A DNA stretch of 64,000 nucleotides, from the NCBI RefSeq assembly GCF_010671925.1, contig NZ_JAAHIH010000001.1, positions 613,053 through 677,052 of the forward strand, given 5' to 3'. The notes below the pieces were generated by a model that worked only from the letters and a program-made list of their open reading frames with translations, was not told the origin of the DNA and ran no database searches. Source of the stretch: Moorena sp. SIOASIH. GTDB taxonomy: Bacteria > Cyanobacteriota > Cyanobacteriia > Cyanobacteriales > Coleofasciculaceae. The position numbers and the translations under genes were made by a program. This document shows positions 27,172-29,946 of the stretch, piece after piece. Position 1 is the first letter of the stretch; the number at the start of each line of letters is the position of its first letter.

Positions 27172-28236
27172 ATGAATGATCTAGACCAAGCCAAGGTAGA
27201 TGACTTTTCTGGGAAAATGCTTGATATCCTCAATGGGTCTATGCTAAGTCTTATGATCGGTATTGGGTATCAGACTGGGTTGTTTGAAGTTATGGCCAAT
27301 CTGCCCCCTTCTACTAGCGAACAAATCGCTGTGGTAGCCCAGCTAAAAGAAAGGTATGTCCGTGAATGGCTGGCAGCCATGGTCACTGGGCAAATCATCG
27401 ACTATGACCCAACAACCAATAGCTATAGTTTATCCGCTGAACATGCCTCTGTGCTGACACAGGTGGCAGGACCAAATAACATGGCACGGTTGACACTGGT
27501 TATTCCATTTCTGGCATCAGTCCAAAAAGCTCTTGTTAATAGTTTTCACAACGGTGGTGGCGTTTCCTATTCTGCTTACCCAGACTTCATGAACTTGTGG
27601 GCTGAAATTAATGCCGATAGATTTGATGCCACCATAACCCAAAAAATCCTACCTCTTATGCCTGATGTGGTTGAAAAGATGCGTCAAGGTGTTGATGTTC
27701 TTGATATTGGTTGTGGGGATGGTCATATCCTTAACCTCATGGCTAAAGCCTTTCCCAACAGTAGGTTTACAGGCTATGATTTTTTAGAAAATGGCATTGA
27801 TGCTGCCAGAGCGAAAGCACAATCCCTTGGCCTAACCAATATTAACTTAGAAGTCAAAGATATTACAACCTTAAATGAACCAAACAAGTACGAACTAATT
27901 ACAGCTTTTGATGCCATCCACGATATGGCACAACCAGCTAAAGTATTAAAATCAATTGCCGATTCACTTAAACCTGACGGAACTTTCTTGATGGTTGACT
28001 TGGCAGCATCAAGTAATCTGCACGAAAACCTGGATCACCCCTTAGGGCCGTGGCTATACACAACATCTTGTATGCATTGCATGACCGTTTCATTGGCACT
28101 AAATGGGGCAGGGCTTGGTGCAATGTGGGGGGAACAAAAAGCACTAAAAATGTTAAATGATGCAGGGTTTATACATGTAGATATTAAACAAATTCCAGAA
28201 GACATTTTCAACAATTATTATATTGCCAAAAGGTAA
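27172..28236 (+). CDS. Class I SAM-dependent methyltransferase with an N-terminal substrate-binding/dimerisation domain
   Basis: SAM motif VLDIGCGDGHILNLMAKAF. Motifs DFLENGIDAARAKA, FDAIHDMAQP and LKPDGTFLMVD. The ~150-aa N-terminal domain is typical of small-molecule O-/C-methyltransferases. Confidence 0.75.
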   Translation: MNDLDQAKVDDFSGKMLDILNGSMLSLMIGIGYQTGLFEVMANLPPSTSEQIAVVAQLKERYVREWLAAMVTGQIIDYDPTTNSYSLSAEHASVLTQVAGPNNMARLTLVIPFLASVQKALVNSFHNGGGVSYSAYPDFMNLWAEINADRFDATITQKILPLMPDVVEKMRQGVDVLDIGCGDGHILNLMAKAFPNSRFTGYDFLENGIDAARAKAQSLGLTNINLEVKDITTLNEPNKYELITAFDAIHDMAQPAKVLKSIADSLKPDGTFLMVDLAASSNLHENLDHPLGPWLYTTSCMHCMTVSLALNGAGLGAMWGEQKALKMLNDAGFIHVDIKQIPEDIFNNYYIAKR

Positions 28237-28517
28237 GCCGTCAGCGGTCAACTATCAGCTATCAGCTATCAGCTATCAGCTATCAGCGGTCAGCTATCAG
28301 CGGTTAGCTATCAGCTATCAGCTAAAGGCTTATGGTCAAGGCTGACGGCTGAATGCTTACATTCGCTGAATGCTTATGCCAAAACCTAAATACTCAAGTT
28401 ATTTAAGGGTATAATTACCTGGAGATAAATAAACGGAACTGTGTTAACTTTTGTAACGCTGCCACCTCTGTTCCCTATTCCCTGCTCCCTGCTCCCTGCT
28501 CCCTAAAACCCAAGAAT

Positions 28518-29234
28518 TTGTACCTCATTCAAATAATAATTGCTATAACCATGATGGAATTAGAACTAATAACTAAAGTATATCCGATTACAAAGAATTG
28601 CCAATTATTATATGAACGAGGAGAACATGCACTTTTAGGTATTAGTCCATTTAATAGCTATTTTTCAGAAAAAAATATCGCTATTTTATCAAACTGGGCG
28701 ATGAAGAATTTTAAGAGCTTTAATTTTTTTATACCAGACGAGCCCTATGTCTATACACTAATGGCTTTAGGATACGATAAAGTTAAAGCCATAAAAAAAT
28801 CTAAAAGGCAAGCTAATTATTTAAAAAATAAATGTCTAAGAGCCTTAACAGGATTAGACCTATCAACAAATGAAGCCGAAGCACTAATCTTAGATTTCCG
28901 GTATTTGAACAAAAACAAAAATTATCTCTCAGCACTAAAATTTTATGAAGATAAATATGCTAATGATAGTGAATTTAGAATAAATTGTATCGAAACGTCT
29001 AAGCAGGTAGTGGAAACACGAACATACCTTAGTTATGATCGGTTAGAAATTGCTGTTAAGTATCTATTAGCAGAATTACCTTTGTTTTTTAACAGTGTCA
29101 GTATTTTGGGTAAAAAAGAAGGAGTTTTTTGTTACCGGTATTGCCCCTTGTTAATTCAAACTGTTTTTGAGAAAAAAAATGGGATGGTATTGAATAATCA
29201 AGGTTACCTTATTATAGATATTGAATCTAATTAA
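28518..29234 (+). CDS. Putative tRNA-dependent cyclodipeptide synthase (CDPS, AlbC-like)
   Basis: ERGEHALLGISPFNSYFSEKNIAILSNWA matches the AlbC catalytic-serine region as recalled (..RGEHALIGIS.GNSYFS..). KYLLAELPLF contains the conserved Y-x3-E pair. VFCYRY contains the conserved Tyr. About 238 aa. About 30% GC against roughly 45% in flanking genes. The true start may be the internal MMELEL. Confidence 0.6.
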   Translation: MYLIQIIIAITMMELELITKVYPITKNCQLLYERGEHALLGISPFNSYFSEKNIAILSNWAMKNFKSFNFFIPDEPYVYTLMALGYDKVKAIKKSKRQANYLKNKCLRALTGLDLSTNEAEALILDFRYLNKNKNYLSALKFYEDKYANDSEFRINCIETSKQVVETRTYLSYDRLEIAVKYLLAELPLFFNSVSILGKKEGVFCYRYCPLLIQTVFEKKNGMVLNNQGYLIIDIESN

Positions 29235-29413
29235 ATAGAGCTGAATGAATCAAGCCGCAATGTAAGCCTATGGTATAGGCGGATATGCTTACAATTTTAT
29301 ACTGCCATTACCCCAATTCCATCTACTAGCTAAACTTGCTACCATCCTAATGGCTATATTGTAACCAATTATTACAATTTTTATAAATTGCCTTGTTTTT
29401 TTTTGCTTTTAGC

Positions 29414-29448
29414 TTGACAACAACCCTAGCCAATTGTTATACTATACT
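29414..29448 (+). promoter_or_regulatory. Near-consensus sigma70-type promoter TTGACA-N17/18-TATACT
   Basis: TTGACAacaaccctagccaattgtTATACT. It drives a leader containing a strong hairpin (29460-29500) and an 18-codon uORF ahead of the 29602 ORF. Confidence 0.4.
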
Positions 29449-29459
29449 CATAACAAAAA

Positions 29460-29500
29460 GAGCCGCGCTCTTCGGCGAGCAACCAGGAAGCGCGGCTCTC
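29460..29500 (+). other. 11-bp perfect stem-loop AGAGCCGCGCT..AGCGCGGCTCT at the 5' end of the predicted transcript
   Basis: Direct reading. Followed by CCCCCC rather than a U run, so not a classical terminator. Confidence 0.5.
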
Positions 29501-29601
29501 CCCCCAAGTAAAATTGAGGTAACTATATCATGCCAGAAAAACCATTAGTTTATCATCCCATCGATTACCATGAAGCGTTCGCGTAGCGTGTGCGTAGCAC
29601 A

Positions 29602-29946
29602 ATGGAGCGCCTTGAGCAGCTTGCCCAGACGGATTCCAAGCCAGAAAATTCCTATCCCTATCCCATCACCGAGCGAGAGCAAATCCTAATTCGACTGTAC
29701 AGTTACTGGGAATTAGGTATGACACCGCAAGGGTTTTCTCAAAAGTGGGACATAACTCCAGAAGATATCGCGTTGATCTGCTCTTGCTCCACTCAAACCG
29801 TTAACGGCTGGTTTAACACCAGTCGTCGCTGTTACCCTCCCACTTCTGGTCACTTGCGCCATCTGGCCATTATGGATTTCTTGTTGGAAGATTTTGAGAC
29901 AATTCCGAAAGAAGTATTGGAGCGATTGTTCTCCAAGGGAGAATGA
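29602..29946 (+). CDS. Small hypothetical protein with a putative HTH (ITPEDIALICSCSTQTVNGWF)
   Basis: About 114 aa counted from MERLEQ; the track's MRSTMERL start lies inside a GCGTAGCGTGTGCGTAGCAC repeat motif. No confident family assignment. Confidence 0.35.
   Translation: MERLEQLAQTDSKPENSYPYPITEREQILIRLYSYWELGMTPQGFSQKWDITPEDIALICSCSTQTVNGWFNTSRRCYPPTSGHLRHLAIMDFLLEDFETIPKEVLERLFSKGE

What the first reader, a model, noticed from the sequence alone, without database searches (positions are those of the whole stretch)
27172..29946. Low-GC island with a putative tRNA-dependent cyclodipeptide synthase next to a SAM methyltransferase
The 238-aa ORF at 28518 has the hallmark CDPS segments (RGEHALLGISPFNSYFS around the catalytic Ser, Y-x3-E in YLLAELPLF, FCYRY). 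It is about 30% GC, whereas flanking genes are about 45%, which indicates horizontal acquisition. Immediately upstream on the same strand is a two-domain small-molecule methyltransferase. Downstream are a strong consensus promoter, a leader hairpin, a uORF and a small HTH protein. CDPS + tailoring methyltransferase is the standard layout of diketopiperazine clusters. CDPSs are rare in cyanobacteria. The island is bracketed by an IS607 element, a truncated dhaM duplicate and MITE-like repeats.
Basis: partly seen in the sequence, partly recalled or inferred. Interest (0 to 1): 0.8.

Follow-up and report, generated by a model that had tools for sequence, protein, structure and literature searches.

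The report
Acquired methyltransferase–cyclodipeptide synthase gene pair
This marine cyanobacterium (Moorena sp. SIOASIH) carries a horizontally acquired two-gene unit, a methyltransferase followed by a tRNA-dependent cyclodipeptide synthase, that probably makes a small methylated cyclic dipeptide; the synthase is already annotated in public databases, and what may be new is that the pairing is conserved and mobile.

Summary
ORF 28518-29234 (more likely starting at ATG 28551, 227 aa) is a full-length cyclodipeptide synthase (CDPS). It scores 184 bits on Pfam and 202 bits on TIGR04539. Its AlphaFold model (pLDDT 93) matches solved CDPSs at TM 0.88. Ser, Tyr, Glu and Tyr are all in place, but AlbC His203 is Arg. 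GC is 0.30 against a window mean of 0.44.

The upstream gene is an Rv2258c-family SAM methyltransferase. Its link to the CDPS is not chance: the same MT-then-CDPS pair recurs in about nine unrelated genomic contexts, from marine cyanobacteria to Gammaproteobacteria. The two genes co-diverge (r = 0.97) and both are under purifying selection.

Comparison with Moorena producens 3L puts the acquired segment at 27014-29303, where it replaces a HEAT-repeat gene. About 90% nucleotide identity to Okeania and Dapis is confined to the two genes.

The IS607 element is a separate insertion. The dhaM-like gene, the promoter, the hairpin and the small ORF 29602-29946 are native Moorena sequence, not part of the island. 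The "MITE-like" repeats are ordinary heptamer arrays.

The product is unknown. One cassette relative, Algicola CDPS 102, makes cyclo(Cys-Gly). The gene is already annotated as a CDPS, so this is a new member of a known kind. Interest is moderate.

The parts
27014..29303 (+). Acquired segment (island) as delimited against Moorena producens 3L. It replaces about 1.6 kb that holds a 377-aa HEAT-repeat gene in 3L.
   Evidence: blastn of the window against L090: homology stops at window 27013 (L090 7780) and resumes at window 29304 (L090 9390).
27172..28236 (+). Rv2258c-family class I SAM-dependent methyltransferase, 354 aa. It has an N-terminal winged-helix domain and a Rossmann MT domain with the VLDIGCGDG SAM motif.
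   Evidence: Pfam HTH_65/WHD_Rv2258c 109 bits and Methyltransf_31 89 bits. PDB 5f8c (Rv2258c) 367 bits over residues 9-354. 91-71% identical partners lie directly upstream of CDPS homologs. dN/dS is 0.09-0.16.
28237..28550 (+). Expanded 314-nt spacer between MT and CDPS. It contains CAGCTAT/CAGCGGT heptamer arrays (about 28240-28330) and CTCCCTG repeats (about 28466-28505). The spacer is -4 to 38 nt in most other cassettes and 337 nt in Okeania KiyG1.
   Evidence: Sequence, repeat families D3 and D4, gap sizes. Only 28503-28550 is homologous to Okeania.
28551..29234 (+). tRNA-dependent cyclodipeptide synthase, 227 aa; an alternative TTG start at 28518 gives 238 aa. Key residues in 227-aa numbering: catalytic Ser32, Asn35, Tyr171, Glu175, Tyr195 and Arg196 (AlbC S37, N40, Y178, E182, Y202, H203).
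   Evidence: PF16715 183.9 bits, profile positions 2-218 of 220. TIGR04539 202 bits. PDB hits. Catalytic columns. AlphaFold pLDDT 93 and Foldseek TM 0.88 to 6ztu and 3oqh. 100% identical to P0001.

Best explanation
Window 27014-29303 is a horizontally acquired two-gene biosynthetic cassette.

The second gene encodes a cyclodipeptide synthase of the NYH-like structural type. By analogy with AlbC, YvmC and Rv2275, it takes the aminoacyl group of a first aminoacyl-tRNA onto Ser32. It then adds a second aminoacyl group from another aminoacyl-tRNA. The dipeptidyl-enzyme is cyclised with the help of Tyr195, releasing a 2,5-diketopiperazine. Arg196 takes the place of the usual His that helps position Tyr171 and Glu175.

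The first gene encodes an Rv2258c-family SAM methyltransferase that most likely methylates that cyclodipeptide. CDPS substrates must be tRNA-charged proteinogenic amino acids, so methylation has to come after ring formation. The same MT sub-branch partners with CDPSs that have very different pockets, and even with the other CDPS subfamily. The methyl acceptor is therefore more likely the common diketopiperazine core, or a shared small residue, than a specific bulky side chain.

Shown: family membership, catalytic residues, fold, conserved pairing, co-divergence, purifying selection, and acquisition relative to M. producens 3L.

Inferred: actual activity, the identity of the two amino acids, the site of methylation, and co-expression across the 314-nt spacer. 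On the amino acids, the pockets P1 LGFPFLFF and P2 TQVTYPL match no defined specificity group. They most resemble pockets that take Pro, Leu or Val.
For: CDPS identity.

Conserved MT-then-CDPS adjacency on the same strand, in otherwise unrelated neighbourhoods:
- L001/L002/L009 (bin.35), L011 (Dapis M126), L012 (Okeania KiyG1), L004, L005/L006.
- L007/L008/L013 (uncultured Gammaproteobacteria, 4-nt stop/start overlap).
- L061 (Algicola sagamiensis).
Matching contig lengths suggest four more pairs.

About 68 other CDPS loci lack this MT within 6 kb.

Pairwise identities of MT and CDPS correlate with r = 0.97 over 21 pairs. dN/dS is 0.09-0.16 for the MT and 0.22-0.35 for the CDPS.

The CDPS-linked MTs fall in one sub-branch of a family of more than 7900 proteins.

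The cassette CDPS of Algicola is CDPS 102 of Gondry et al. 2018. It has identical P1/P2 motifs, VGYPSIFF/SAIKDPT, and produced cyclo(Cys-Gly) and cyclo(Cys-Cys) in E. coli (PMC5816076).

Acquisition: about 90% nt identity to Okeania and Dapis is limited to 27148-28231 and 28503-29222. The cassette is absent at the syntenic site of M. producens 3L. No Moorena species representative appears among the CDPS relatives returned.
Against: No product or activity data exist for this clade.

His203, described as important for positioning Tyr178 and Glu182 (PMC11580168), is Arg here.

The MT-CDPS spacer has been expanded by repeats to 314 nt, so operon expression in this strain is unproven.

Close relatives show decay: a frameshift in the Okeania KiyG1 CDPS and an MT truncated to 146 aa in Dapis M172.

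The MT family is very large and mostly not CDPS-linked. None of about 50 evaluable metagenomic relatives has a CDPS, and Rv2258c itself is 367 bits away. The MT could therefore have a CDPS-independent substrate.

Cyanobacterial CDPSs of the XYP type were inactive in E. coli in Gondry 2018.
Confidence: 0.65

Rival explanations
1. The cassette is a decaying or silent passenger in this strain. The genes were acquired but are no longer expressed together, so no methylated product is made.
For: The 314-nt repeat-filled spacer compares with -4 to 38 nt elsewhere. The Okeania KiyG1 CDPS is frameshifted near codon 40. The Dapis M172 MT is truncated. The CDPS has the higher dN/dS, about 0.33. No convincing sigma-70-like promoter was found upstream of either gene.
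Against: Both ORFs are intact and full length against their profiles. All catalytic residues are kept. dN/dS is well below 1 against every relative. A TATAAT hexamer lies at 28411-28416 upstream of the CDPS.
Confidence: 0.15
2. The CDPS makes an unmodified cyclodipeptide and the methyltransferase has a separate substrate. The two travel together for another reason, for example self-protection, or methylation of a different metabolite or macromolecule.
For: The Rv2258c family has more than 7900 members at E<=1e-40. It is highly conserved (about 60% identity across phyla) and mostly unlinked to CDPS genes. The biochemical function of Rv2258c is not established in the papers found.
Against: The pairing shows tight adjacency, overlapping stop and start in L007, r = 0.97 co-divergence, and transfer of exactly these two genes. 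All CDPS-linked MTs cluster in one sub-branch, including partners of a different CDPS subfamily.
Confidence: 0.15
3. The adjacency is fortuitous. The MT is a native Moorena gene and only the low-GC CDPS was inserted, as GC content alone would suggest.
For: MT GC is 0.42 (z = -0.55), like the host, while CDPS GC is 0.30 (z = -3.6).
Against: The MT is absent from the syntenic site in M. producens 3L together with the CDPS. The MT is 90% nt identical to the Okeania and Dapis copies, just as the CDPS is. The same GC gap between the two genes exists in L001, L011 and L004.
Confidence: 0.03

Closest known systems
CDPS 102 of Algicola sagamiensis (WP_018694280; Gondry et al. 2018, PMC5816076), which makes cyclo(Cys-Gly)/cyclo(Cys-Cys)
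   Same: It is an NYH-type CDPS, about 39-40% identical to the window enzyme. It is preceded on the same strand by an Rv2258c-family MT that is 51% identical to the window MT (L061). It is the only experimentally tested member of this cassette type that I could identify.
   Different: It has His at position 203, where the window enzyme has Arg. Its pockets are VGYPSIFF/SAIKDPT against LGFPFLFF/TQVTYPL, so the amino acids used probably differ. The paper does not discuss the neighbouring MT.
NYH-subfamily CDPSs with solved structures: BtCDPS (6ztu), YvmC (3oqh), Shae-CDPS (6ez3), Rv2275 (2x9q), AlbC (3oqv/4q24)
   Same: Same fold (TM 0.83-0.88). The residues corresponding to AlbC S37, N40, Y178, E182 and Y202 are the same. 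Presumably the same ping-pong aminoacyl-enzyme mechanism applies.
   Different: Sequence identity is 24-30%. Position 203 is Arg rather than His. The pocket motifs are different. The tailoring partners of these enzymes are a P450 (CYP121, CypX) or a cyclodipeptide oxidase, not this MT (established knowledge).
Two-enzyme CDPS plus methyltransferase pathways of actinomycetes, such as the Actinosynnema mirum CDPS with a UbiE-type MT (noted in PMC2922099) and the nocardioazine MTs (PMC10156859)
   Same: The logic is the same: a CDPS makes the diketopiperazine and a SAM-dependent MT tailors it, encoded by adjacent genes.
   Different: The MT belongs to a different family (winged-helix plus MT, Rv2258c type, against UbiE type). 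The hosts are marine cyanobacteria and Gammaproteobacteria. The gene order is MT first. The substrates are probably not Trp or Phe.
CDPS 18 of Moorea producens 3L (LYNGBM3L_69800; cyclo-Ala-Pro; Jacques et al. 2015, as listed in the PMC5816076 supplement)
   Same: It is a CDPS from the same cyanobacterial genus.
   Different: It belongs to the XYP subfamily, with pockets FILCAVFF/FTYRGIK. It is an unrelated locus, and strain 3L lacks the cassette described here.
Rv2258c of Mycobacterium tuberculosis (PDB 5f8c) and TnmJ (PDB 8g5s)
   Same: The domain architecture is the same and the sequence similarity is very high (367 and 168 bits).
   Different: Neither is encoded next to a CDPS gene in the loci examined here. 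In the crude tree Rv2258c falls outside the CDPS-linked MT sub-branch. Their substrates are not known to me.

Membership tests
Cyclodipeptide synthase (PF16715 / TIGR04539) | Full-length profile match above the curated cut-off | tested here: met
   PF16715 scores 183.9 bits (cut-off 27) over profile positions 2-218 of 220. TIGR04539 scores 202 bits (cut-off 45).
Cyclodipeptide synthase (PF16715 / TIGR04539) | Catalytic Ser (AlbC S37) in a G-x-S motif | tested here: met
   GISPFN is present. The Ser is Ser32 in 227-aa numbering and Ser43 in 238-aa numbering. It aligns with AlbC S37 and is invariant in alignment A1.
Cyclodipeptide synthase (PF16715 / TIGR04539) | Tyr178, Glu182 and Tyr202 (AlbC numbering) | tested here: met
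   Tyr171, Glu175 and Tyr195 are present and invariant across 31 relatives.
Cyclodipeptide synthase (PF16715 / TIGR04539) | Rossmann-type fold of class Ic aaRS-like CDPSs | tested here: met
   The AlphaFold2 model has pLDDT 93 and pTM 0.89. Foldseek gives TM 0.88 to 6ztu and 3oqh, and 0.83-0.86 to AlbC and Rv2275.
Cyclodipeptide synthase (PF16715 / TIGR04539) | Makes cyclodipeptides from two aminoacyl-tRNAs | not testable with these tools
   This needs expression and LC-MS, or an in vitro assay.
NYH subfamily of CDPSs | Asn40, Tyr202 and His203 (AlbC numbering) | tested here: not met
   Asn and Tyr are present, but position 203 is Arg. Among the 120 closest homologs the counts are H 93, R 12, K 10 and Q 5. 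The cassette clade mostly has R or K. Fold and sequence are otherwise NYH-like, and there is no Pro203, so it is not XYP.
Rv2258c-like SAM methyltransferase (PF21320 + class I MT) | N-terminal Rv2258c-type winged-helix domain plus a class I MT domain with a glycine-rich SAM motif | tested here: met
   HTH_65 scores 109 bits and Methyltransf_31 scores 89 bits. PDB 5f8c scores 367 bits end to end. The VLDIGCGDG motif is in the sequence.
Rv2258c-like SAM methyltransferase (PF21320 + class I MT) | Methyl transfer to a defined substrate | not testable with these tools
   No substrate for the family was found in the literature searches.
CDPS biosynthetic gene cluster with a tailoring enzyme | Tailoring gene conserved next to the CDPS across lineages and contexts | tested here: met
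   About nine independent contexts share the pair. Co-divergence gives r = 0.97. In L007 the stop and start codons overlap.
CDPS biosynthetic gene cluster with a tailoring enzyme | The tailoring enzyme acts on the CDPS product | not testable with these tools
   A biochemical assay is required.
Horizontally acquired genomic island | Absent from the syntenic site of a close relative | tested here: met
   M. producens 3L has a HEAT-repeat gene where the window has 27014-29303. The flanks are 87-97% identical.
Horizontally acquired genomic island | High identity to distant taxa, restricted to the island | tested here: met
   Identity to Okeania and Dapis is 88-90% nt, over the two genes only.
Horizontally acquired genomic island | Own mobility machinery or att/target repeats at the borders | tested here: inconclusive
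   No integrase, tRNA gene or border repeats were found. The nearby IS607 is a separate insertion at L090 position 7386/7387.

The most novel reading that the evidence does not exclude
One sub-branch of the otherwise function-less Rv2258c methyltransferase family may be a dedicated partner of cyclodipeptide synthases. It pairs with NYH-like enzymes (this cassette and Algicola CDPS 102) and with XYP-type CDPSs fused to a cyclic-nucleotide-binding domain (L092, L093). If so, it would define a widespread, mobile and previously undescribed two-gene module. The module would make core-methylated (N- or O-methyl) small diketopiperazines, possibly as signalling molecules, in marine cyanobacteria and proteobacteria. 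It would also give the first functional handle on the Rv2258c family.
Probability: 0.3. Interest if true: 0.6.

Novelty: new member of a known kind. Interest (0 to 1): 0.4.

Why it matters
If the pair is active, it should yield a methylated cyclic dipeptide from a prolific natural-product genus, encoded by only about 2 kb of DNA, which is easy to express and test. The conserved pairing offers a concrete substrate hypothesis for the Rv2258c methyltransferase family, which has a solved structure but, as far as my searches showed, no assigned reaction. The locus is also a clean example of transfer of a minimal biosynthetic unit between genera of marine filamentous cyanobacteria and Gammaproteobacteria. 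However, the CDPS itself is already annotated as such in the public record, CDPS clusters in these cyanobacteria are routinely flagged by genome mining, and CDPS-plus-methyltransferase pathways are an established theme.

Tried and rejected
- Rfam scan of 26500-31700 at E<=1 gave nothing credible; the promoter-proximal hairpin scored only 25.8 bits against an Enterococcus sRNA model.
- No tRNA or tmRNA gene is present anywhere in the window.
- Exact look-up of the 238-aa translation found nothing, because the public gene starts at the ATG.
- Pfam and NCBIfam gave no hit for ORF 29590-29946. tblastn of that ORF against all cassette loci also found nothing, so it was dropped from the cassette.
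- Literature searches for 'cyclodipeptide synthase' with 'Rv2258c' returned 0 papers. Searches for TnmJ and for S-methyltransferase with CDPS gave no functional information on the MT.
- Specificity prediction failed. The P1/P2 motifs LGFPFLFF/TQVTYPL are absent from the Gondry 2018 tables and from the supplement text that is held. The consensus logos are images and cannot be read.
- A TerB-domain gene upstream of the MT was tested as a possible third cassette gene. It occurs only in L004 and L005/L006 and was rejected.
- 'Only the low-GC CDPS was inserted' was rejected.
- 'IS607 delivered the island' was rejected. The IS interrupts otherwise contiguous 3L-like sequence about 400 nt away from the island border.
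Full report
**Observation**

One is a 354-aa ORF at 27172-28236. The other is a 238-aa ORF at 28518-29234 that starts with TTG. The second is 100% identical to a 227-aa public protein annotated as 'tRNA-dependent cyclodipeptide synthase [Moorea sp. SIOASIH]' (P0001). That protein starts at the ATG at 28551, and homologs of 224-241 aa agree with that start. 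So the window comes from Moorena sp. SIOASIH, a tropical marine filamentous cyanobacterium sequenced by hybrid PacBio/Illumina assembly (PMC7825088).

The composition claim is correct for the CDPS only. Its GC is 0.295 and GC3 is 0.237. The 28 long ORFs of the window average 0.443 (sd 0.041) and 0.404 (sd 0.051), giving z = -3.6 and -3.3. The methyltransferase is ordinary, with GC 0.42 and z = -0.55.

**What the CDPS is**

The protein matches Pfam PF16715 at 183.9 bits over profile positions 2-218 of 220, and TIGR04539 at 202 bits. It hits every sequence-detectable solved CDPS: BtCDPS, the Staphylococcus haemolyticus enzyme, YvmC, Rv2275 and AlbC.

I aligned it with 120 homologs and with the AlbC, BtCDPS, YvmC and Rv2275 sequences recovered from the PDB alignments. 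AlbC G35, S37, N40, Y178, E182 and Y202 are all conserved. In 227-aa numbering they are Gly30, Ser32, Asn35, Tyr171, Glu175 and Tyr195, and they are invariant in alignment A1.

AlbC His203 is Arg196 here. His203 and Asn40 are described as stabilising Tyr178 and Glu182, and they define the NYH subfamily (PMC11580168). Among the 120 nearest homologs, position 203 is H in 93, R in 12, K in 10 and Q in 5. R or K predominates in the immediate clade. The enzyme is therefore NYH-like but does not meet the letter of the NYH signature, and it is not XYP because there is no Pro203.

An AlphaFold2 model built on A1 is confident (pLDDT 93, pTM 0.89). It superposes on NYH-type structures at TM 0.83-0.88 and on XYP-type structures at only 0.57-0.72.

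The specificity pockets were read at the positions given in the Methods of PMC5816076. They are P1 LGFPFLFF and P2 TQVTYPL. I could not find this combination in the tables or in the held supplement of that census. The nearest listed P1 motifs are:
- LGFPWLVF (cLV/cLL/cLI)
- LGFPWFMF (cPL)
- LGLPWLFF (cPM)

A small or aliphatic residue such as Pro, Leu or Val is a reasonable guess, and no more than that.

**What the methyltransferase is**

The upstream protein has the Rv2258c-type winged-helix domain (PF21320, 109 bits) followed by a class I SAM methyltransferase domain. It aligns end to end with the crystal structure of M. tuberculosis Rv2258c at 367 bits, and with TnmJ at 168 bits. The family is very large, with at least 7973 proteins at E<=1e-40. 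I found no paper assigning it a reaction.

**Is the pairing real?**

I looked up the genomic contexts of CDPS homologs at 82, 80, 68, 59 and 58% identity. I also scanned one genome per GTDB species for CDPS relatives, which gave 80 loci, and searched all loci with the window MT. An Rv2258c-type MT lies directly upstream, on the same strand, in:
- Cyanobacteria bacterium P01_H01_bin.35
- Dapis M126
- Okeania KiyG1
- two uncultured, apparently cyanobacterial metagenome lineages (L004, L005/L006)
- an uncultured gammaproteobacterium (L007/L008/L013), where the MT stop overlaps the CDPS start by 4 nt
- Algicola sagamiensis (L061)

Dapis M172 retains only the C-terminal 146 aa of the MT. Flanking genes differ completely between these contexts. 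The remaining 68 or so CDPS loci, from actinomycetes, Bdellovibrionota, Legionella, sphingomonads and others, have no such MT within 6 kb.

Pairwise identities of MT and CDPS across seven cassettes correlate with r = 0.97 over 21 pairs. Nei-Gojobori dN/dS is 0.09-0.16 for the MT and 0.22-0.35 for the CDPS.

Approaching from the MT side gave the following. Three MTs at about 60% identity were looked up. One had no CDPS. Two (L092, L093) were followed by a 445-446-aa protein with a divergent CDPS domain fused to a cyclic-nucleotide-binding domain. That CDPS domain is of the XYP type, G-S-S...Y-E-Y-P.

In contrast, none of about 50 evaluable loci among 80 metagenomic MT relatives at 44-62% identity has a CDPS-like ORF. 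The caveat is that my search profile was built from NYH-like sequences.

A crude neighbour-joining tree places all ten CDPS-linked MTs in one sub-branch together with one unlinked sequence. Rv2258c and 23 other unlinked MTs lie elsewhere. The tree has no support values, so it is indicative only.

The pairing is therefore a specific, inherited association within one part of a generally unlinked family.

**An experimentally characterised relative**

The Algicola cassette CDPS (P0113) has exactly the P1/P2 motifs VGYPSIFF/SAIKDPT listed for 'CDPS 102, Algicola sagamiensis, WP_018694280' in PMC5816076. That enzyme produced cyclo(Cys-Gly), at 73-86%, and cyclo(Cys-Cys) in E. coli. This shows that at least one CDPS of this cassette type is active. 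Its pockets differ from the window enzyme at Y65F and S119F, so the product need not be the same.

**Acquisition and true borders**

blastn of the window against the cassettes shows 88-90% nucleotide identity to Okeania and Dapis. It is confined to 27148-28231 (the MT plus 24 nt upstream) and 28503/28551-29222 (the CDPS), with no flank homology.

The small ORF downstream (29602-29946) belongs to a Moorena-specific multicopy family. Following its 95%-identical ortholog gave the syntenic regions of M. producens 3L (L090) and Moorena sp. SIO3A5 (L089). Alignment against them shows three things:
1. Window 24843-26618, the IS607-type TnpA/TnpB element, is an insertion into otherwise contiguous sequence at L090 7386/7387.
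2. The EIIA-man/DhaM-like gene at 26607-27017 is present at the same place in 3L as a 131-aa gene. It is an old paralog of the 5' end of the 977-aa gene at 15264-18197, not part of the island.
3. Window 27014-29303 replaces L090 7781-9389, which carries a 377-aa HEAT-repeat gene.

From 29304 onward the sequence is again Moorena-like. It includes the TTGACA-18-TATACT promoter-like site and the GAGCCGCGC...GCGCGGCTC hairpin, which are conserved in 3L, then the small ORF, GrpB and acs (97% identity).

No Moorena species representative appeared among the CDPS relatives. I found no integrase, tRNA gene or border repeats, so the transfer mechanism is unknown.

**The GC puzzle**

The CDPS is 5-10 GC points below its MT partner not only here but also in L001, L011 and L004. 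The two genes have similar GC in L005 and L007, and in L007 both are far below the host's 0.54. The low GC is thus an inherited property of the CDPS within the cyanobacterial cassettes. It does not show that the CDPS arrived separately. I have no tested explanation for the persistent GC3 gap.

**Mechanism proposed**

This part is inferred from the AlbC, YvmC and Rv2275 literature summarised in PMC11580168. The CDPS acylates Ser32 with the first aminoacyl-tRNA. It then forms a dipeptidyl-enzyme with the second, and cyclises it with Tyr195. Arg196 replaces His in the second shell.

The MT then methylates the diketopiperazine. CDPS substrates must be tRNA-charged, so methylation cannot come first. 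The same MT sub-branch serves CDPSs with very different pockets and from both subfamilies. I therefore favour the common diketopiperazine core as the acceptor, but this is inference.

**Uncertainties specific to this strain**

The MT-CDPS spacer is 314 nt and full of heptamer repeats, against -4 to 38 nt in most cassettes. No good sigma-70-type promoter was detected upstream of either gene. Decay is visible in relatives, as the Okeania frameshift and the Dapis truncation.

**Comparison and novelty**

CDPS-plus-methyltransferase pathways are established in actinomycetes. A different Moorea CDPS has been characterised (CDPS 18, XYP, cAP). CDPS clusters in Dapis, Roseofilum and other cyanobacteria are already reported by genome mining, and the gene is annotated.

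Three things appear undescribed in the literature I could search:
- the conserved, mobile pairing with an Rv2258c-family MT
- the R/K203 variant clade
- the related MT plus CDPS-cNMP-binding fusion loci

I rate this a new member of a known kind, of moderate interest. The modest upside is that the MT sub-branch may turn out to be a general cyclodipeptide methyltransferase.

Noticed in passing
window 24843-26618: An IS607-type element, with a MerR-HTH/serine-recombinase TnpA at 24910-25506 and a TnpB at 24977-26581. It is inserted precisely into sequence that is contiguous in M. producens 3L (L090 7386/7387), clipping the 3' end of the EIIA-man gene. It is an event independent of the MT-CDPS acquisition.
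   Followed up: yes
window 26607-27017 (-) and 17727-18140 (-): A stand-alone 136-aa EIIA-man/DhaM-like gene is 93% nt identical over 408 nt to the 5' end of a 977-aa multidomain gene (15264-18197). The stand-alone copy also exists in M. producens 3L as a 131-aa gene, so the duplication is old.
   Followed up: partly
window 29304-29946: A promoter-like site (29414-29443) is followed by a 40-nt hairpin (29459-29500; fold z = -2.2 for 29448-29605), an 18-codon uORF (29531-29587) and a 114-aa ORF (29602-29946). The ORF belongs to a Moorena-restricted, multicopy family of hypothetical proteins. There are 46 homologs, several per genome, and some are named HTH-domain proteins in UniRef. It has no Pfam match. 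The promoter and hairpin are conserved in strain 3L.
   Followed up: partly
window 29935-30590: A roughly 650-nt block of tandem heptamer repeats (GAATGAA, GAAGCAT, CCAGAAG, then TTCTCAA/TTCTTAA) forms a giant imperfect palindrome. The arms are 29939-30223 and 30259-30543, 285 nt each and 79% complementary. It lies between the small ORF and GrpB. Similar heptamer arrays occur at many intergenic sites in the window.
   Followed up: no
L092 4001-6537 and L093 3271-5690: An Rv2258c-type MT (60-61% identical to the window MT) is followed directly by a 445-446-aa protein. That protein has a divergent XYP-type CDPS domain (G-S-S...Y-E-Y-P) fused to a C-terminal cyclic-nucleotide-binding domain. I did not find this fusion type in the domain fusions listed by Gondry 2018.
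   Followed up: partly
L012 6001-6670 (Okeania sp. KiyG1); L003/L010 5158-5598 (Dapis sp. BLCC M172): Signs of decay in close relatives. The Okeania CDPS needs a frameshift near codon 40, which is either a pseudogene or an assembly error. The Dapis M172 MT is reduced to its C-terminal 146 aa.
   Followed up: partly
L001 9381-12161 and L002 2829-5609: In Cyanobacteria bacterium P01_H01_bin.35, two further methyltransferase genes (260 aa and 589-608 aa) lie just downstream of the CDPS. Their orientation differs between the two assemblies. This may be an extended cluster in that organism, and it is absent from the window.
   Followed up: no
L004 6319-6804; L005 5820-6305: A 161-aa TerB-domain gene (78% identical between the two loci) sits immediately upstream of the MT in two cassettes. 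It is absent from the window and from the other cassettes.
   Followed up: yes
window 27172-29234 and L001, L004, L011: A persistent GC3 gap exists between the two co-transferred genes: 0.375 vs 0.237 here, 0.309 vs 0.178 in L001 and 0.390 vs 0.254 in L004. Their synonymous divergence is nevertheless similar. This is unexplained.
   Followed up: partly
not in the window (M. tuberculosis genome): From general knowledge of locus tags only: Rv2258c, the structural prototype of the MT family, lies 17 locus tags from the CDPS Rv2275 and from CYP121 (Rv2276). This is probably a coincidence and was not tested here.
   Followed up: no
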